Of a stretch of 64,000 nucleotides of DNA, positions 2,743 through 8,652 are shown one piece after another. The stretch lies in assembly GCA_041687695.1 (NCBI GenBank), contig JAWLBL010000004.1:192001-256000 (forward strand), read 5' to 3'. Source of the stretch: Myxococcota bacterium. GTDB taxonomy: Bacteria; Myxococcota_A; UBA9042; PHBI01; JAWLBL01. Below the pieces are notes generated by a model that saw only the letters and a list, made by a program, of their open reading frames with translations, was not told where the DNA came from and did no database searches. The translations under genes and the position numbers were made by a program. Within the stretch, counting starts at the first letter, position 1. The number at the start of each line of letters is the position of its first letter.

Positions 2743-4764
2743 GTGGCGCGCCTCGGGGCCCTGCTGGCGCTCGCGCTGACCCTGGCGTCGCCTGCGGCGC
2801 GCGCCTTCGACTACCTCGAGCACGCCTACTTCGCCGACCGCGCCTGCTACGAGGCCCAGCGCCGCCTCGCGCCCCTCGTGACCCCCGCGCGCCCCGACGT
2901 CGTCGCCCGCTACCTCGCCCTCGCGCTCGCCTGTCCCGAGCGCTGGGACCGCCCGTACTGCGCGGACGACCTCAAGCAGGCCGAGGCCGGCCTCAACCGC
3001 CTCGAGGCCCCGCCCGCCGCCAGCGGCGACCACGCCCTCACCCTGGGCGACTTCAGCGCCCTGGTCGACCACCTCGCCTGGTTCGGCCCGGTCGGCGGCT
3101 TCCCACGCGCCCGCCAGCCGGGCCTCACCGCCGAGGTCCTGGCCCTGCTCGGCGCCCCCACCACCTCCGGCGGCCTCATCGAGGACGTCGCCGAGGAGGC
3201 CTGCGACAGCGGCGTCGCCGTCCCCTGGGACCGCGTCGAGCACGACGTCCGCAGCGCCCTCGCGGCCTCGGACGCCAGCGGCGCGCCCGTCGCCGTCCCG
3301 CCCGCGCTGCTCGCCCCCAACCGCCGCGCCAGCCCCCACGCCGGCCCCGTCGACCCCGCCGCGCTCCTGTCCTTCAACAACCCCCACTACCTCGACCTCA
3401 AGCTCCACGGCGACGACCACTTCGGCGTCCGCGCCTTCGGCGCCTGGACCGGCTACCACACCGCCGCCCGCGTCATCGCCGCCAGCCGCTGCCAGGACGT
3501 CCTCGCCGTCGACGCCGACCTGCTCGAGGACCTCGCCGACGGCCTCCCCGCCTTCGCCCGCGTCGACTTCGACGACCTCGCGCCCGCCGAACGCGCCCGC
3601 CAGGGCTGCCTCCTCCTCGCCGAGCGCGTCCGCCGGCGCCTGCTCGACTGGCGGCGCCGCGCCGAGCCCGCCCTCACCGCGCCGGCCGCCCCCTTCCTCG
3701 ACGCCTTCGCCGACGGCCCCGCCACCACCGAGGAGGCGCTGCTGCTCGAGCACGTCGTGACGGCCCTGATGGCCGTGGTCTGGGAGGGCGGAGGGCTCCA
3801 CTTCCTCCAGGACGGCCTCTCCGGCGGTCACCTGCGCACCGACCCGACCTCGCGCGCCGGCCTGGGCGAGATCCGCTACGCCCACGACACCGACGGCCAG
3901 TTCGGCCTCTCGGCCGTCCTCACCACGGCCGCCGGCCACGCGCCGTTCGTCGCCTACGGGGACGGCTTCCTGCTCGGCCGCCCCACCGGCGCGCTCGACA
4001 CCTGCGTCTGGGATCGCTTGGGCGACGCGGGTCAGCCGGACGTCACGGCCTGCCTGGTCCAGCACCAACGCGGGCTGCTGGTCGCCCTGGGGGCCGCGAG
4101 CCTGGTCGACTGGGCCCTGGGCGGCGTGCTGCAGGCGCCTCGCGCCGCCGCCGACGGCTGCTCGACGCCGACCGACGCCCCGCACGCCTTCGTTTGCCGC
4201 TTCCTGCCCCTGCGCGCCGTCGCGGCCGCGGGCTACGAACCCCAGGGCCCGCCGCCCACCGAGCTGGCCGAGGGCACCCTGCCGACCCCGCCGCCTCCCT
4301 TCGCCTACCAGTCGCTGTTGACCGTCCTGGCGGCCGACTTCGGCGGCGACGGCGTGCAGGCTGGCGCGCGCCTGGTCTTCCTGAGCGAGCTCGACGATCT
4401 GGCCAACTGGATGTCCAGCTGGCACTTCGGCCTGCTCACGACCCAGGGCGTGCGCCGCAGCGAGCTGCTGGCCGAGTTCTCCTTCATGTTCCACTGGCGC
4501 TGGGCCGCGCGCTTTCTGGTCAACGCCGGCCCCGTCCTGCACGCCGGCTGGCGCGGCTTCGGCGACGACGTGTCGACCTTCGTCGGCCTCGGCCCCAGCG
4601 TCGGCCTCACCTTCCTGCCGGAAGGCTGGACCAAGATCCCGCTCGAGGCGACCTTCAGCCTGCGCCTGCCCGTGACGCTGCTCGACAGCCGCTTCGGCGC
4701 GGCGGACGGCGTGCGCATCGAGGGCTGGTGGTTCGAGATCGGCGTCGGCCTGGCCTTCATGTGA
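2743..4764 (+). CDS. Secreted protein with a Zn-dependent phospholipase C/P1-nuclease-like domain and a C-terminal beta-strand-rich (barrel-like) domain
   Basis: Signal peptide ending ARA, then FDYLEH; HFLQDGLSGGH (HxxxDxxxxxH); HDTD; C-terminus has alternating hydrophobic strands ending FEIGVGLAFM. Confidence 0.6.
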   Translation: MARLGALLALALTLASPAARAFDYLEHAYFADRACYEAQRRLAPLVTPARPDVVARYLALALACPERWDRPYCADDLKQAEAGLNRLEAPPAASGDHALTLGDFSALVDHLAWFGPVGGFPRARQPGLTAEVLALLGAPTTSGGLIEDVAEEACDSGVAVPWDRVEHDVRSALAASDASGAPVAVPPALLAPNRRASPHAGPVDPAALLSFNNPHYLDLKLHGDDHFGVRAFGAWTGYHTAARVIAASRCQDVLAVDADLLEDLADGLPAFARVDFDDLAPAERARQGCLLLAERVRRRLLDWRRRAEPALTAPAAPFLDAFADGPATTEEALLLEHVVTALMAVVWEGGGLHFLQDGLSGGHLRTDPTSRAGLGEIRYAHDTDGQFGLSAVLTTAAGHAPFVAYGDGFLLGRPTGALDTCVWDRLGDAGQPDVTACLVQHQRGLLVALGAASLVDWALGGVLQAPRAAADGCSTPTDAPHAFVCRFLPLRAVAAAGYEPQGPPPTELAEGTLPTPPPPFAYQSLLTVLAADFGGDGVQAGARLVFLSELDDLANWMSSWHFGLLTTQGVRRSELLAEFSFMFHWRWAARFLVNAGPVLHAGWRGFGDDVSTFVGLGPSVGLTFLPEGWTKIPLEATFSLRLPVTLLDSRFGAADGVRIEGWWFEIGVGLAFM

Positions 4765-4804
4765 CCGCGGCGCTGGCCGACGCGTGACCGTGGCGCTGGC
4801 CGAC
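4761..4804 (+). repeat. Short tandem duplication (23-bp unit, ~2 copies) spanning a stop codon
   Basis: GTGACCGCGGCGCTGGCCGACGC followed by GTGACCGTGGCGCTGGCCGAC. Confidence 0.7.
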
Positions 4805-4940
4805 CGGCCAGGACGGCCAGCCAGCGCCTCGATGCACATCCCTTCGGCCGGAACGCGCCAGGGACGTCGCGGCCTCTCGGTGACCGACGCGCCAGGGACG
4901 CCGGCCGTTGCCCACGCGAGGGCCAGGTCCTCGCGTGCGC

Positions 4941-4975
4941 AAAACAAAAACCCGAACGGCCGAGGCCATCCGGGT
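4941..4975 (-). terminator. Rho-independent terminator on the minus strand
   Basis: Minus strand reads ACCCGGATGGC-CTCG-GCCGTTCGGGT then TTTTGTTTT. The 11-bp stem has two G-U pairs that would be A-C mismatches on the plus strand. Confidence 0.8.
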
Positions 4976-7197
4976 CTTTGGGGTTGACGAGCACAGCCCT
5001 GTGGGGTGTTCCCCTTCGAAGGGTCTCACGGCCTCCCAGCTGCCACGCCGATGTCACCATCGTCGCGGCCTCCTCTCATCGCGTTGGGCTCGACTTCAGA
5101 GTCTCGGGGTGCCTGCCTGGCGCCGCATGGGTTGAGCGCGCCCACCATGGCCTTGGAGCGAGCTCCGGCCTTCGTGGTCTGCAGCAGGTCACCTGGCGCC
5201 GATGAGGGCTCTCACCGTCGCCGTCCTCTCTTGTCGTTGGCCTCGCGTTCAGAGTTTGACCAGAAGCGTGTGTCCATGGCTCGTGACCTCGTCCTCACGA
5301 CCGTCACGATCCTCGCGTTCCCTTCCGTGCCGGCGCGGACGCCGACTTCCTCCATCTCTCTGACGACCCACCAGCTCGCGGAACCCGGGCTGCCGCCTCC
5401 GGCCCTCCCTGTCGGGAGCGCCGCGCCGTCGGCCAGGCCTCGAGGCGAACCTCTCGGCGTGTCCATCGGGCACGAGGCGAAGAACCAGGCGCCAGCGGAG
5501 TGCCTCGTGGCGCTCCGTGGGCGTCCGCTCGGGGGTCAGACGGCCGACGCGCGTCTCGGGTGGCGATCGACCCTCACAGCGTGAGCGCTGCGAGCGTACG
5601 ATCGAGACCCATGACATCGCGACGGGGTGGTGCGACCTAGGTCGCCTCCGCCATCGTCCGACTCGAGCGAGCTCCCGTCGGAACAGCTCCTCGCGTCCTC
5701 TCGCGCGCCTCGCAGGGGTGGGTCGGGGAGACCCCGCACCACCGTGTCCCGGTCAGACCGGGAGGCCGTGGAGACCACGTCCTCCTTGCCCTCCGCCCTC
5801 GCACCGACCAGCCGCGGAGCGGTGGTTCGATGGTCGAGCGCTCGGGCCTCGCGGACGTCTCCGTCCACGAGCGGCGTCGCCCTCCGACTTCAGCCTGCGA
5901 ACCACGCTCGGTGACCGCCAGGGCCCACCCGAAGGCGAACCGTGACGACCCGCGCGTCCCCTCGTGACCCCGCCGAAGCGGGATCCCCCATGACGCTCTC
6001 GACCGAACCGCCCGCCTCCCGGAGGAGACCCCGTCACTGCCTTGCGAGCAGGGGCGGGTGGCGACTCGAGCCTCGGACGAGCCTCGTGGGTCGATGGGAC
6101 CTGCCGACCAGAGCGCCGCCGCCGCGCCGGGACGAGTCCCGGGAGGCGATGCCGCGCTGGGCGACCGAGGAAGGACCGGCGAGCCGGGCCTTCGTGTCCG
6201 CGAACCGAAGCCATCGTGCGCTGCCTACCGAGCGTCCGAACCGTGGAGCCGTGGCGTCCGAGGGGAAACCCCCCGGCCGTTGCTCCCGCCGGATCGGCCG
6301 TCGACGAAGGCAGCCTGACGCGTGACGCATGCGAGCCGTCGATTGCTTCGGGGCCGGCGGACCGAGGTCCGCGTGGCCCCGCCGGGCCCTCGCCATCGTC
6401 CGGGTCTCCCCGGGGTCGCTGGCCAAGGCCGACGCGTGGAGCGGTCGAAGCGGCTGTCGCCGGTTCGAGCCGCGTTCCATGGGCTCGTGTGTCGCATTGA
6501 TGAGAGATGTCGGGCCGGAAAGGGTCGCTCGAATCGATCCGCTCGCGCGGACGCATCGGAGCCGGACGCCCTCCCTTGGGGTTTGGTACCCTTCGACGCT
6601 TGCGGAAGCGAGCAGCGACCCACACCGGGGTTGCCTCCCCCGGCTGAGCTGCGCCTTCAGGTTTTCTCAACCTCTTGACGCCTTGTTCCGCTCGCGACCT
6701 CTCCGGCCTTGTTTCATGCCGGTAACGCCCTTGGGCTTTGCACCTTCAGAGGGTTTCCCCCACCGGTAGCGGGCCTCGCCTCTCGACGACGCCTGCCCTT
6801 CTTGCCGTTCGAATGCCCGGATTCGACAGTAGCCAGGATACCGCTGTCCTCCGTGCCTCGACTTCAAGGATTTACGCATCCGATGGGTCCGTACCGTTCG
6901 GGCCGGTGTTACCCGGGCTCCGAAGGCCGATCCTCTCCTGGCGTTCACCTCTTCGAGGTGTTCCCCCCCTTGGCCTCGGCTTCATGTCTCCATGAAGCCT
7001 CCTCTCTTGGGCTTCGACACGACGCTGAACGGCGAACCGTCCATCGTCGTATGTGCTCTTCAAAGTTTTAAAGAACCAAGGGAGTGGCTTGCCTCTTGCG
7101 AGTGCTGCCGACCTCCATGAGGTTCGTGTCCTCGTCGGTCCGCGCGAGGCGGGCCGTGTCGGACCTCCCTTGGGCCGCGCTCCCTGGCGTCAACCCT
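4941..7197 (-). ncRNA. Candidate very large (~2.2 kb) structured non-coding RNA of unknown family
   Basis: No ORF with recognisable motifs or the regular GC3 pattern of flanking genes. Bounded by a promoter-like element and a terminator. Terminal 9-bp complementarity (7188-7196 with 4981-4989), GNRA/UUCG hairpins on the minus strand, and a repeated internal module. Confidence 0.62.
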
Positions 7198-7203
7198 GAG
7201 GCG

Positions 7204-7233
7204 ATAGTGGATCGCCCGACGGAGCTGCCGCAA
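7204..7233 (-). promoter_or_regulatory. Putative sigma70-type promoter for the candidate RNA
   Basis: Minus strand TTGCGG (7233-7228), 18 nt, CACTAT (7209-7204). Predicted start ~7197, right at the 5' arm of the terminal stem. Weak consensus match on its own. Confidence 0.4.
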
Positions 7234-7257
7234 CCCGAATTTTCGGGGGGCGCCGGC

Positions 7258-7319
7258 TGTGGAAAACCAAGCTGTAGGGAAGTCGCGCACTTTCGCACCG
7301 TCTCCCCAAGTTGTCCACA
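7258..7319. promoter_or_regulatory. Two oppositely oriented DnaA-box-like 9-mers
   Basis: TGTGGAAAA at 7258-7266 (reverse complement TTTTCCACA fits TTWTNCACA) and TTGTCCACA at 7311-7319 (high-GC-type box). Confidence 0.45.
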
Positions 7320-7608
7320 GGAAAGCCACACGTCCGCGCGATCGGCCTGCGCCGCACCCGGTGGCCGCGAGAGCATCGCAAGTGCCTGTTTTCACGTGCG
7401 ATCCGGGACGCGGCCCCGTGTCGCGCCGCAAAAGGGTGCCTCGGACGGCCACACGGGGCCGAAGGGCAGGGCGCGGACGCGGCGCCCTCGGGCGCGCTTC
7501 GGGGCGGGCGTTCGCGCGATGCCCACGCGCGATTGGCGTGATGGGGCGCCTGCGCGCGAAGCGCGTGATGGTTGACGGCGGAGGCGCGCGTCGCTACAGG
7601 CCAGCGCC

Positions 7609-8652
7609 ATGGACCTGCCCGGCTACCAGCTCGACGCGCTCCGCGTCCACCCCGGCCTCGTGCTCGCGCCCATGAGCGGCGTCACCGACTCGCCCTTTCG
7701 CCGCTTGGTCAAGGCGGCCAGCGGCGACGCCGTGGGCCTCGTCGTCAGCGAGTTCCTCTCGATCGAGGCGCTCACCCGCCGCGAGCTGCGCAGCATGGTC
7801 CGGCTGGCCTTCCACCCCGAGGAGCGGCCCGTCGGCATCCAGATCTTCGGCGCCGACCCGGTCAAGATGGCCGAGGCCGCCAAGATCGTCGAGGACGCCG
7901 GCGCGGATCTGGTCGACATCAACTGCGGCTGCCCGGCTCCCAAGGTCGTCAAGCGCGGCGGCGGCGCCGGCCTCCTCCGCACCCTGCCGGCGCTGGCCGA
8001 CATCCTGCGCGCCGTGGTCCCGGCGGTCTCGATCCCCGTCACCATCAAGATCCGCAACGGCTGGGACGAGCACACCATCAACGCCCACGACACCCTCGAG
8101 CTGGCGCAGGACTTCGGCGCGCGCGCGGTCGCGATCCACGGCCGCACCCGGATGCAGCTCTACCGCGGCGAGGCCGACTGGGACATCGTCGGCGCGCTCA
8201 AGCAGGCCTCGCGGCTGCCCATCATCGGCTCCGGCGACATCGCGACGCCCGCCGACGCCCGCCGGCGCCTGGCCGACACGGGCTGCGACGGCGTCATGGT
8301 CGGCCGGGGCGCCATCATGAACCCCTGGATCTTCCGCCAGGTCGCCGACGAGCTGGCCGGCCGCGCGCCCACGGTGCCGACCTGGCGCGACAAGATCGCG
8401 CTCCTCGAGCGCTACCGCCAGATGCTGACCGAGATCTACCCGCCCAAGGTCCTGCCGGGCCGGATGCGGATGATGCTCTCGCGCCTCATCAAGGGCTTCC
8501 CGGGCGCGGCCGAGGTCCGCCTGACCTGCGTCAAGATGGACGCGCCCGAGGCGATGCTGGCCACGCTGTCCGAGGCCTGCGAGCGCCTCGAGATCCTGGA
8601 CGCGCCGGCCGTCAGCGTAGACCCGCGCGCCGGCGTCGCCGAGGCGGCCTGA
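7609..8652 (+). CDS. dusB: tRNA-dihydrouridine synthase, DusB-like
   Basis: LAPMSGVTDSPFR, QIFG, DINCGCP, GGGAGLL, VTIKIR, IHGRT, GSGDI and GVMVGRGA motifs. Confidence 0.92.
   Translation: MDLPGYQLDALRVHPGLVLAPMSGVTDSPFRRLVKAASGDAVGLVVSEFLSIEALTRRELRSMVRLAFHPEERPVGIQIFGADPVKMAEAAKIVEDAGADLVDINCGCPAPKVVKRGGGAGLLRTLPALADILRAVVPAVSIPVTIKIRNGWDEHTINAHDTLELAQDFGARAVAIHGRTRMQLYRGEADWDIVGALKQASRLPIIGSGDIATPADARRRLADTGCDGVMVGRGAIMNPWIFRQVADELAGRAPTVPTWRDKIALLERYRQMLTEIYPPKVLPGRMRMMLSRLIKGFPGAAEVRLTCVKMDAPEAMLATLSEACERLEILDAPAVSVDPRAGVAEAA

What the first reader, a model, noticed from the sequence alone, without database searches (positions are those of the whole stretch)
4941..7233. Candidate giant (~2.2 kb) structured non-coding RNA gene with its own promoter and terminator
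Seen: in an otherwise gene-dense window, 4765-7608 has only motif-free ORFs. On the minus strand a TTGCGG-N18-CACTAT element predicts a start near 7197, and a U-tailed hairpin at 4975-4941 ends the unit. The interior is full of hairpins and repeated modules. I recognise no rRNA, RNase P, tmRNA or intron hallmark. Known: the large bacterial ncRNAs I know of (OLE, ROOL, GOLLD) are well under this length. Inference: an rRNA-sized structured RNA of unknown function, and the best candidate here for an undescribed system.
Basis: partly seen in the sequence, partly recalled or inferred. Interest (0 to 1): 0.92.

Follow-up and report, generated by a model that had tools for sequence, protein, structure and literature searches.

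The report
Giant structured RNA gene, new family
This gene-free gap encodes a real, abundantly transcribed 2.2-kilobase structured RNA that belongs to a previously uncatalogued family of about 1-kilobase bacterial RNAs and carries an extra 1.3-kilobase outgrowth, making it one of the largest bacterial non-coding RNAs apart from ribosomal RNA.

Summary
Window 7197->~4945 (minus strand) is a stand-alone RNA gene. In metatranscriptomes from 4 studies, contigs of 1.7-2.2 kb cover 4970-7188 and nothing in either flank.

It is a member of a family with no Rfam 15 match. The family is found mostly in Myxococcota, with some Eisenbacteria and records labelled Acidobacteriota or Planctomycetota.

Typical members are 0.8-1.05 kb. 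A consensus of 240 base pairs is strongly supported by covariation: 172 pairs show compensatory change against 103 in shuffles (0 of 500).

The fold is closed by a 5'/3' helix and built from 11 iterated 3x3 internal loops (GNA opposite ANG).

The window copy equals the conserved 5' block (7195-6567) plus the 3' block (5261-4982), split by a lineage-specific 1.3 kb expansion segment. The expansion sits at a hot spot where other members carry +0.3 to +1.6 kb, some apparently more.

It is not coding, not a mobile element, and not RNase P, 6S or tmRNA.

Function is unknown. The best lead is that outside Myxococcota the RNA sits directly downstream of the PIN-PhoH2 helicase-nuclease gene (8 of 10 loci). 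I read it as an RNP scaffold or partner RNA.

The parts
7228..7233 (-). -35-like hexamer TTGCGG
   Evidence: Sequence. TTGC is conserved in register in 9 of 10 aligned homologues (A1). It does not pass the strict consensus scan.
7204..7209 (-). -10-like hexamer CACTAT, 18 nt after the -35
   Evidence: Sequence. xAxxxT hexamers are aligned in the homologues.
7188..7197 (-). 5' end region of the RNA. The start is predicted at ~7197-7195. RNA-library contigs reach 7188.
   Evidence: The X1 contig ends at 7188 with an Illumina adapter directly behind it (tables 7 and 8). Related metagenome contigs begin at the equivalent of 7189. Homology to relatives begins at 7195.
7172..7196 (-). 5' strand of the closing helix P1. 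7196-7188 pairs with 4981-4989, and 7181-7172 pairs with 4990-4999.
   Evidence: Read from the sequence. It covaries across the family (window GGGUUGACG/CGUCAACCC, others GGUUGGCG/..GCCAACC or GGUUGUCGCUGC/GCAGCGRCAACC; helices 1-4).
6567..7195 (-). Conserved 5' domain (about 630 nt)
   Evidence: 67-75% identity to relatives. nhmmer E 1.7e-151. Fold z-score -4.79, 0 of 20 shuffles as stable.
6586..6739 (-). Most conserved sub-domain, used for covariance model R1
   Evidence: A3, 97 distinct sequences: 30 of 36 pairs have compensatory change. R1 scores 160.8 bits here.
5262..6566 (-). Lineage-specific expansion segment (1305 nt) replacing a ~50-130 nt variable hairpin
   Evidence: Relatives have the two conserved blocks ~50 nt apart. 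There is no similarity to any of ~200 family loci. It is present and contiguous in RNA contigs. The MFE fold closes on itself. z-scores are -1.45 and -2.84 for the two halves. Its longest ORF has no Pfam family. It has no tandem repeats.
4982..5261 (-). Conserved 3' domain
   Evidence: 68-72% identity to relatives. nhmmer E 5.1e-52. Helices 37-49 are supported by covariation.
4941..4975 (-). Intrinsic terminator: hairpin 4975-4951 and U-tract 4950-4941
   Evidence: Scan hit with stem 4964-4951 plus TTTTTGTTTT. It is conserved in the genomic homologues with 5 of 9 pairs showing double change (helix 50). RNA contigs stop at 4970-4986, so it may be trimmed.
4941..7197 (-). Whole transcription unit (about 2.25 kb; at least 2.2 kb seen in RNA contigs)
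   Evidence: 215 of the 230 consensus pairs that have residues in the window copy are canonical.

Best explanation
Shown: window 7197->~4945 (minus strand) is an independent gene for a highly expressed, non-coding, highly structured RNA.

It belongs to an uncatalogued family whose typical members are 0.8-1.05 kb. The two ends pair in a closing helix. The body is built from long helical arms interrupted by 11 copies of one symmetric 3x3 internal loop (5'-GNA-3' opposite 5'-ANG-3'), plus conserved hairpin loops.

In the window copy, a peripheral variable hairpin between the 5' and 3' domains has grown into a 1.3 kb expansion segment. It is transcribed with the rest and not removed. The same site is a hot spot of expansion across the family.

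Inferred (about 1 in 3 on its own): the RNA works in trans as the scaffold or partner of a ribonucleoprotein. The iterated internal loops would serve as repeated docking sites. The most likely protein partner is the PIN-PhoH2 RNA helicase-nuclease, whose gene lies directly upstream of the RNA in the non-Myxococcota members and is present, unlinked, in this genome. The RNA would tether, sequester or regulate that enzyme. The expansion segment would be a tolerated or lineage-specific peripheral add-on, like an rRNA expansion segment.
For: Transcription:
- 16 of the 20 listed runs that hold part of the stretch are RNA libraries; the 20 come from 9 studies.
- In 4 runs from 4 studies, contigs cover 4982-7188 (X1, 2224 nt, adapter at 7188), 4986-7179 (X3) and 4970-6677 (X4), and X2 also covers the unit.
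- None of the four covers 4700-4901 or 7225-7700.

Family:
- BLAST matches in 16 of 40 relatives.
- 37 of 43 genome contigs pattern hits were confirmed by profile.
- 120 of 120 metagenome loci were confirmed.
- Model R1 hits 30 of 151 sampled genomes of the phylum.

Structure:
- 240 pairs in 50 helices.
- 88.5% of cells are paired, against 74.5% in shuffles (0 of 500) and 40-43% when the partners are slid.
- 172 pairs show double change, against 103 in shuffles (0 of 500) and 71-93 slid.
- 30 of 36 pairs are compensatory in 97 sequences.
- The window copy forms 215 of 230 consensus pairs.
- Many invariant G-U pairs fix the strand.

Not coding: the longest ORFs differ in strand and place among 17 members, and there is no period-3 signal (rank 41 of 404).

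Iterated loops: 11 symmetric 3x3 loops, GAA-dominated opposite AUG/AAG/AGG/ACG.

Expansion hot spot: 15 members with both flanks carry +297 to +1573 nt at the same site.

PhoH2 link:
- PIN_4+PhoH lies directly upstream on the same strand in L049, L054, L077, L085 and in L220, L221, L222, L224. That is 8 of 10 loci outside Myxococcota with enough flank.
- The genes on the other side differ.
- PhoH2 is present in the own genome on contig C9 and in 39 of 41 relatives.
Against: The functional part is inference from synteny in other phyla.
- In Myxococcota the RNA and phoH2 are never adjacent in the loci seen.
- PhoH2 is nearly universal in the class (39 of 41) while the RNA was found in only 16 of 40 by BLAST. 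Co-occurrence therefore says nothing.
- Some genomes carry up to 6 RNA copies for one phoH2.
- No binding was tested.
- The identity of the 3x3 loop as a protein site, rather than an RNA-RNA tertiary module, is untested.

Other limits:
- The strand of the transcript was not read directly, because contigs carry no strand.
- The promoter hexamers are weak (3 of 6 each; one search found no consensus site).
- In the expansion segment, constraint is only weakly supported. Of 39 listed variants against RNA contigs, 17 fall at unpaired sites, 2 pairs are compensatory, 6 keep pairing and 12 break predicted pairs. A further 44 variants were not shown.
Confidence: 0.5

Rival explanations
1. An RNA-only architecture. 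The RNA folds, and perhaps multimerises, into a large self-supporting particle, as reported for GOLLD, ROOL and OLE. The iterated 3x3 loops and GNRA-type loops would be RNA-RNA tertiary modules, and no dedicated protein partner would be needed.
For: Large size, closed 5'/3' helix, and 11 iterated internal loops. Conserved GAAA/GAGA-type hairpin loops. Very high abundance in RNA libraries relative to neighbours. Peripheral expansions are tolerated. Variable gene neighbourhood in Myxococcota. The precedent is the cryo-EM paper PMC12286853; I saw only its search listing and abstract.
Against: No 3D evidence and no test of multimerisation. It does not explain the conserved phoH2-RNA linkage outside Myxococcota. 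Unlike GOLLD and ROOL, the family was not found in phage or viral collections.
Confidence: 0.2
2. A multi-site sponge or decoy for another RNA-binding protein or RNase (not PhoH2), titrating it through the 11 repeated internal-loop sites, by analogy with CsrB/RsmZ or 6S RNA.
For: Iterated, sequence-conserved purine-rich motif. High abundance. Several paralogous copies in some genomes.
Against: No CsrA gene was found in the own genome, which is 99.3% complete. 6S RNA is present elsewhere. The motifs lie inside helices of one elaborate, covarying global fold rather than in independent hairpins. No candidate protein has been identified.
Confidence: 0.13
3. A self-processing RNA (ribozyme) or a substrate of cut-and-join processing that yields circular RNA. 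The conserved core would catalyse or direct the reaction.
For: One RNA contig (run X2) joins 5018 to 7172 head-to-tail with 1 ambiguous letter. Metagenome contig L103 has identical ends (1-123 = 975-1097) and is circularly permuted relative to L101. There are strongly conserved unpaired nucleotides.
Against: Only 1 of 4 laid runs shows the joint, and the other three have linear contigs with both ends. The joint removes nucleotides that pair in the consensus (5017-5011 with 6581-6578), so it is not a clean cut at the base of P1. Tandem gene copies exist in the family (L118, L152) and could give circular assembly paths. No group I or group II intron signal even at E<=10.
Confidence: 0.07
4. The 1.3 kb middle is a foreign insertion (intron, IS or MITE-like element, or other mobile DNA) that landed in an ordinary ~0.95 kb RNA gene and may have inactivated it.
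For: Relatives have the two conserved blocks ~50 nt apart. The insert has no similarity to inserts of even the closest relatives, whose core is 75-81% identical. Its GC is higher than in the core.
Against: It is single-copy in the 8 Mb genome. It has no Pfam family in its ORFs, no tandem repeats and no intron family hit. It is transcribed and retained in RNA contigs of 4 studies at the same depth as the core. 15 other members have inserts of graded size (+297 to +1573 nt) at the same site. Inserts are conserved between close relatives (L069 vs L117, 78% over 3 kb). The MFE fold closes on itself as a helix extension. The core keeps 215 of 230 consensus pairs.
Confidence: 0.05
5. A decayed or unusual protein-coding region (pseudogene or alternative genetic code).
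For: High-GC genomes give long chance ORFs. Several ORFs of 100-300 aa overlap the region.
Against: No ORF is conserved in place or strand among 17 members, and there is no period-3 signal. No Pfam hits. Compensatory base-pair changes dominate the substitution pattern.
Confidence: 0.01

Closest known systems
GOLLD, ROOL and OLE RNAs (large 'ornate' bacterial ncRNAs of unknown function; Rfam families, sizes recalled as roughly 800, 580 and 600 nt)
   Same: A stand-alone, large, elaborately folded bacterial ncRNA with strong covariation and conserved unpaired nucleotides. It is highly expressed and has no known biochemical function.
   Different: No sequence or structure match to any of them, or to any of the 4227 Rfam families. 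The core is longer (0.8-1.05 kb) and members reach 2.2-2.7 kb. The host range differs (Myxococcota, Eisenbacteria and others). It was not found in phage or viral collections. It is built from one iterated 3x3 loop module and has hypervariable expansion sites.
PhoH2-associated structured ncRNA candidates (COMPASS / genomic language model preprint, 10.64898/2026.10.21.760802; I read passages only, and figures and supplements were not visible)
   Same: A structured RNA without Rfam annotation encoded next to PIN_4-PhoH genes. The preprint says that distinct RNA architectures accompany different PhoH2 lineages, including 13 clusters on the 3' side of phoH2. The short (~0.8 kb) members of this family lie exactly there.
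   Different: The preprint's described example is a 357-nt motif enriched in Bacteroidota. Its text holds no occurrence of 'Myxococcota' or 'Acidobacteriota'. Whether any of its clusters is this family cannot be told from the text. The window copy and all Myxococcota copies seen are unlinked to phoH2, have their own promoter and terminator, and are far larger.
Ribosomal RNA expansion segments
   Same: A conserved core fold tolerates lineage-specific insertions of hundreds to more than a thousand nucleotides at a few fixed peripheral helices. The insertions are transcribed and retained.
   Different: This is not rRNA. There is no Rfam rRNA hit. It is single-copy here and patchy in distribution (30 of 151 genomes of the phylum).
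CsrB/RsmZ-type protein-sponge RNAs and type III antitoxin RNAs (ToxI)
   Same: Many copies of one short motif within one abundant RNA. For ToxI, the RNA is encoded beside an endoribonuclease gene.
   Different: The motifs here are internal loops within one global covarying fold. They are not GGA hairpin loops or tandem sequence repeats. No CsrA was found in the genome. No tandem repeat was found in the window copy. The adjacent nuclease gene is upstream, not downstream, and is unlinked in Myxococcota.

Membership tests
Any Rfam 15 family (4227 models, including OLE, GOLLD, ROOL, raiA, HEARO, group I and II introns, RNase P, 6S, tmRNA, SRP, rRNA) | Covariance-model score at or above the family's gathering threshold | tested here: not met
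   0 matches in the 64 kb window. 0 matches in 20 homologous loci totalling 91,732 bases. At E<=10 in 4500-7900 there were 5 hits, best E 0.055, all far below gathering score.
RNase P RNA, 6S RNA or tmRNA (as a divergent replacement) | The genome lacks a canonical copy elsewhere | tested here: not met
   Canonical RNase P RNA is on C8 (243 bits), 6S on C6 (48 bits) and tmRNA on C7 (175.6 bits). All exceed their cut-offs.
Group II intron (including ORF-less or circularly permuted forms) | Domain V/VI and D1-D4 signatures, and location inside a host gene with splice sites | tested here: not met
   No Intron_gpII or group-II-D1D4 hit at E<=10. The unit has its own promoter-like and terminator elements and lies between genes. 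The insert is retained in RNA contigs.
Large ornate ncRNA (as a kind, not a homologous family) | More than 400 nt, non-coding, with a multi-helix fold supported by covariation across many species | tested here: met
   240 pairs, of which 172 show compensatory change against 103 in shuffles (0 of 500). No coding signal. The family is present in 27 of 119 sampled genera of the phylum.
Large ornate ncRNA (as a kind) | Expressed as a discrete RNA | tested here: met
   Contigs in RNA libraries of 4 studies are bounded at 4970-4986 and 7172-7188, with silent flanks. The strand was not read.
PhoH2-associated ncRNA (COMPASS preprint) | Encoded adjacent to a PIN_4+PhoH gene | tested here: inconclusive
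   Met for 8 of 10 loci outside Myxococcota. Not met for the window: PhoH2 is on another contig. Not met for any Myxococcota locus examined.
PhoH2-associated ncRNA (COMPASS preprint) | Homology to one of the preprint's RNA clusters | not testable with these tools
   The cluster sequences and figures are not in the text held.
CsrB/Rsm-type sponge | Cognate CsrA/RsmA protein in the genome, and GGA motifs in hairpin loops | tested here: not met
   No PF02599 match in the 99.3% complete genome. The repeated motif is an internal loop within helices.
Mobile element (IS, MITE or prophage-borne RNA) | Multiple near-identical copies, transposase or phage context, or presence on phages or plasmids | tested here: not met
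   Single copy in the own genome. Paralogues in other genomes are only ~70% alike. No match in viral contigs, phages or plasmids. Flanking genes are ordinary chromosomal genes.

The most novel reading that the evidence does not exclude
This is a founding example of a class of kilobase to multi-kilobase bacterial RNAs, possibly the largest structured ncRNAs outside rRNA. They are assembled from an iterated loop module and form a large ribonucleoprotein machine with the PIN-PhoH2 helicase-nuclease, acting in RNA surveillance or turnover. The hypervariable expansion segments (0.3 to more than 2 kb, differing even between close relatives) are functional specificity or cargo regions rather than passive add-ons. 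Part of the RNA pool is converted to a circular form.
Probability: 0.15. Interest if true: 0.95.

Novelty: categorically new. Interest (0 to 1): 0.88.

Why it matters
Large structured bacterial RNAs other than rRNA are very few (RNase P, tmRNA, group I and II introns, OLE, GOLLD, ROOL, raiA). Each has opened new biology or structural principles.

This family stands out in several ways:
- Its core is longer than any of those.
- It reaches at least 2.2-2.7 kb in complete members.
- It is abundant enough to assemble on its own in metatranscriptomes from sludge, root, aquatic and compost samples.
- It has rRNA-like expansion segments.
- It has an unusually regular modular design that invites cryo-EM.

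The conserved linkage to PhoH2 also gives a direct experimental handle on a widespread helicase-nuclease whose cellular role is still poorly defined.

Tried and rejected
- **Rfam.** Searches at gathering score and at E<=10 found nothing usable.
- **tRNA/tmRNA scan.** Nothing in the window.
- **Earlier findings of this scan.** Searches by place, by sequence and by words returned nothing.
- **Literature.** Seven searches found no description of this family. Only the PhoH2-RNA preprint bears on it.
- **Coding hypothesis.** Rejected.
- **Mobile-element or intron origin of the insert.** Rejected as the main reading.
- **Replacement of RNase P, 6S or tmRNA.** Rejected.
- **CsrA sponge.** Rejected.
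- **Phage or plasmid association.** Not found.
- **PhoH2 co-occurrence among relatives.** Uninformative. PhoH2 is in 39 of 41 genomes regardless of the RNA.
- **PhoH in flanks of metagenome contigs.** None seen, but few contigs have enough flank.
- **TolB adjacency.** Seen in 7 Myxococcota loci in both orientations. I read it as clade synteny, not a functional link.
- **Compensatory-change test on the insert.** Using the RNA-contig variants it is inconclusive, because 44 of 84 variants were not shown.
- **Strict promoter scan.** Found no site.
- **X4 joints.** The joints 5255/5260 -> 6638/6639 have short sides (32-37 letters) at 90% likeness. I take them to be contigs of compact relatives rather than splicing of this RNA.
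Full report
**Observation**

The window has 72% GC, so chance ORFs run long. Yet between the gene ending at 4764 and dusB (Pfam Dus, 4.2e-81) starting at 7609 there are only short overlapping ORFs on both strands. The two largest have no Pfam family.

GC falls to 0.63-0.69 at 6500-7250 and 4750-5500.

On the minus strand the sequence shows TTGCGG (7233-7228), 18 nt, then CACTAT (7209-7204). At the far end there is a hairpin at 4975-4951 followed by TTTTTGTTTT.

The strict consensus scan finds the terminator but no promoter.

Rfam 15 gives no match in the whole window at gathering score. At E<=10 it gives only five far sub-threshold hits in 4500-7900. ARAGORN finds nothing.

**Relatives and anatomy**

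The stretch is single-copy in the 8 Mb genome. BLAST finds it in 16 of 40 relatives of the same order or class and in 11 of the 18 genomes of the order, counting the own genome.

Only two parts match:
- 7195->6567, at 67-75% identity;
- 5261->4932.

In relatives these two blocks are about 50 nt apart. Here they are separated by 1305 nt.

The ten-sequence alignment A1 shows:
- a conserved TTGC / xAxxxT upstream pair;
- a conserved start, GGUUGGCGC..GGAGCG, that pairs with the 3' CGCUCUGC..CAACC;
- visible covariation in that pairing (window GGGUUGACG/CGUCAACCC; three others GGUUGUCGCUGC/GCAGCGRCAACC);
- a terminator hairpin with a U-run in every sequence.

**Breadth of the family**

An exact-pattern scan for a 23-letter conserved motif gave 43 loci in genome contigs. 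Of these, 37 are confirmed by an nhmmer profile of nine compact members.
- Most are Myxococcota or 'Deltaproteobacteria' MAGs.
- Three are Eisenbacteria.
- Some records are labelled Planctomycetota, Acidobacteriota or Enterobacteriaceae.
- One is a weak 67-nt hit in Enhygromyxa salina.

All 120 resulting loci hit the profile.

None was found in viral contigs, phages or plasmids.

A covariance model of the best-conserved 151-nt sub-domain (R1) hits:
- 30 of 151 evenly sampled genomes of the window's phylum (27 of 119 genera), with up to 6 copies per genome;
- 7 of 101 genomes in the phylum of locus L054.

Twenty homologous loci also give no Rfam match.

**It is a structured RNA, not a coding region**

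It gives 240 pairs in 50 helices. Counted independently:

| Measure | Observed | Shuffles | Partners slid |
|---|---|---|---|
| Cells paired | 88.5% | 74.5% (0 of 500 as high) | 40-43% |
| Pairs with changes on both sides | 172 | 103 (0 of 500) | 71-93 |
| Cells with compensatory change | 604 | 210 | not counted |

In the 97-sequence sub-domain alignment A3, 30 of 36 pairs show compensatory change.

Several pairs are nearly invariant G-U (for example 16 of 17 sequences at two positions). These would be A-C on the other strand, so the RNA is read from the window's minus strand.

The window copy forms 215 of the 230 consensus pairs for which it has residues.

Fold z-scores against 20 shuffles each:

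| Region | z-score | Shuffles as stable |
|---|---|---|
| 5' conserved block | -4.79 | 0 of 20 |
| Insert, first half | -1.45 | 2 of 20 |
| Insert, second half | -2.84 | 0 of 20 |
| dusB coding control | +0.50 | 16 of 20 |

The longest ORFs in the 17 members differ in strand and position. Column variability has no period-3 signal (rank 41 of 404).

**Architecture**

The ends pair in a two-part closing helix: 7196-7188 with 4981-4989, and 7181-7172 with 4990-4999.

The consensus holds 11 symmetric 3x3 internal loops of one kind. One strand is GNA (mostly GAA). The other is ANG (AUG, AAG, AGG or ACG). Each loop is flanked by 4-5 bp helices.

I could not test which three-dimensional motif this loop forms. 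A likeness to loop-E-type purine loops is recalled only.

**Transcription**

Of the 20 listed public runs that hold part of the stretch, 16 are RNA libraries. The 20 come from 9 studies. I laid the contigs of four RNA runs from four studies: sludge, root, aquatic and compost.
- X1 has a single 2224-nt contig on 4982-7188 (48 differences, 6 gaps), with an Illumina adapter directly behind 7188.
- X3 has a 2082-nt contig on 4986-5971 and 6081-7179, a 109-nt deletion variant inside the insert.
- X4 has a 1705-nt contig on 4970-6677.
- X2 covers 5018-7172.

No run covers 4700-4901 or 7225-7700, which include the ends of both neighbouring genes. These flanks serve as the silent control that the tool asks for.

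The 1.3 kb insert is therefore present and contiguous in the RNA. The unit is far more abundant than its neighbours.

Independently, many whole metagenome contigs are about the size of the element (1.0-2.7 kb). They begin at the equivalent of 7189 and end at or just after the 3' strand of the closing helix.

The 8-9 nt gap between the predicted start (~7197) and the contig starts fits the usual loss at RNA 5' ends in library preparation (recalled). It also has to, because the covarying closing helix needs those nucleotides.

Contigs carry no strand, so the strand was not read directly.

**The 1.3 kb middle is an expansion segment**

It replaces a variable hairpin between the 5' strand of the helix 6574-6569/5023-5018 and the 3' domain. 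Its MFE fold closes on itself.

It shows no similarity to any of about 200 family loci. This holds even for contigs whose core is 75-81% identical to the window's (L098, L150, L158, L138).

The site is a hot spot. Fifteen members with both flanks carry +297 to +1573 nt there. Several others run on for more than 2.2 kb without reaching the 3' block in the DNA held (L069, L117, L137, L150, L158, from contigs of 3.2-5.3 kb).

Two further sites expand by +130 to +1042 nt.

Inserts are homologous between close relatives (L069 vs L117, 78% across 3 kb, the same as their core). Some contain 75-90 nt tandem repeats. The window's insert does not. No insert ORF has a Pfam family.

Complete-looking members reach 2397 nt (L132) and 2686 nt (L146).

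Against the RNA contigs, the 39 listed variants in the window's insert fall as follows:
- 17 at MFE-unpaired positions, where only 25% of positions are unpaired;
- 2 compensatory pairs;
- 6 that keep pairing;
- 12 that break predicted pairs.

A further 44 variants were not shown, so constraint on this insert stays open.

**What it is not**

- Canonical RNase P RNA, 6S RNA and tmRNA lie elsewhere in the genome.
- No CsrA gene was found.
- No intron family matches.
- It is chromosomal and not repeated.

**Clue to function**

In Myxococcota the neighbours vary. TolB is adjacent in 7 loci in both orientations; the rest differ.

Outside Myxococcota, a PIN_4+PhoH gene (PhoH2) lies directly upstream on the same strand in L049, L054, L077 and L085 and in L220, L221, L222 and L224. 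That is 8 of 10 loci with enough flank. It is not so in L055 and L223, and L076 and L225 are cut. The genes on the other side differ.

The own genome has PhoH2 on another contig, and 39 of 41 relatives have it. Co-occurrence is therefore uninformative.

A preprint of October 2026 (10.64898/2026.10.21.760802; passages read) reports long candidate ncRNAs next to PhoH2, including 13 clusters 3' of the gene. Its described example is a 357-nt Bacteroidota motif, and the words 'Myxococcota' and 'Acidobacteriota' do not occur in its text. I could not see its figures or supplements, so overlap with the short members cannot be excluded.

PhoH2 is described as a conserved but poorly characterised protein in the abstract of 10.1101/2020.01.15.907535 (listing seen).

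**Reading**

It is shown that this is an expressed, structured, non-coding RNA gene of a new family with an rRNA-like expansion.

My leading inference (about one in three on its own) is that it works in trans as the scaffold or partner of an RNP with PhoH2, with the iterated loops as docking sites.

The rivals are:
- an RNA-only architecture like GOLLD or ROOL;
- a sponge for another protein;
- a self-processing or circularising RNA.

**Unexplained**

The X2 contig joins 5018 to 7172 head-to-tail. Contig L103 has identical 123-nt ends and is circularly permuted against L101.

These could mean circular RNA, collapsed tandem genes (tandem copies exist in L118 and L152) or artefact. The X2 joint cuts through consensus pairs, which argues against a clean processing site.

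**Novelty**

The library lacks most subscription journals.

Noticed in passing
window 5018 and 7172 (run X2); L103:1-123 and 975-1097; L133:14-83 and 953-1022: Head-to-tail (circular or permuted) assembly paths of the RNA. They appear in one RNA run and in two metagenome contigs. Tandem gene copies occur in L118 and L152 and could be an alternative cause.
   Followed up: partly
L137, L150, L158, L117 (contigs of 3489, 5338, 3677 and 3199 nt): These contigs start at the RNA's 5' end and run on for more than 2.3 kb past the 5' domain without reaching the 3' domain in the DNA held. Family members of 3.5-5 kb may exist.
   Followed up: no
L150:1212-1465 and 2048-2368; L153:1312-1510; L158:1106-1413: The expansion segments of close relatives contain tandem repeats of about 75-90 nt. 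This suggests growth by duplication of hairpin units. The window's insert has none.
   Followed up: partly
window 2743-4764 (+): A 673-aa ORF with a signal-peptide-like start and no Pfam family, convergent with the RNA gene.
   Followed up: no
window 4761-4845: A GC-rich hairpin with a direct repeat (two copies of a ~20-nt unit) lies between the 673-aa gene and the RNA terminator. It gave only chance-level miRNA-model hits in Rfam.
   Followed up: no
L047, L051, L057, L062, L066, L068, L069: In one Myxococcota clade the RNA gene lies next to tolB, on the same or the opposite strand.
   Followed up: partly
L111, L151, L160 (upstream 1.8-2.3 kb of the profile match): Long stretches upstream of profile position ~255 have no Pfam family in their ORFs. 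They may be large 5' expansions or a different 5' domain.
   Followed up: no
G047 and G176: Some genomes of the phylum hold several copies (6 sub-domain matches in G047). In G176 two copies lie 3.6 kb apart on one contig.
   Followed up: no
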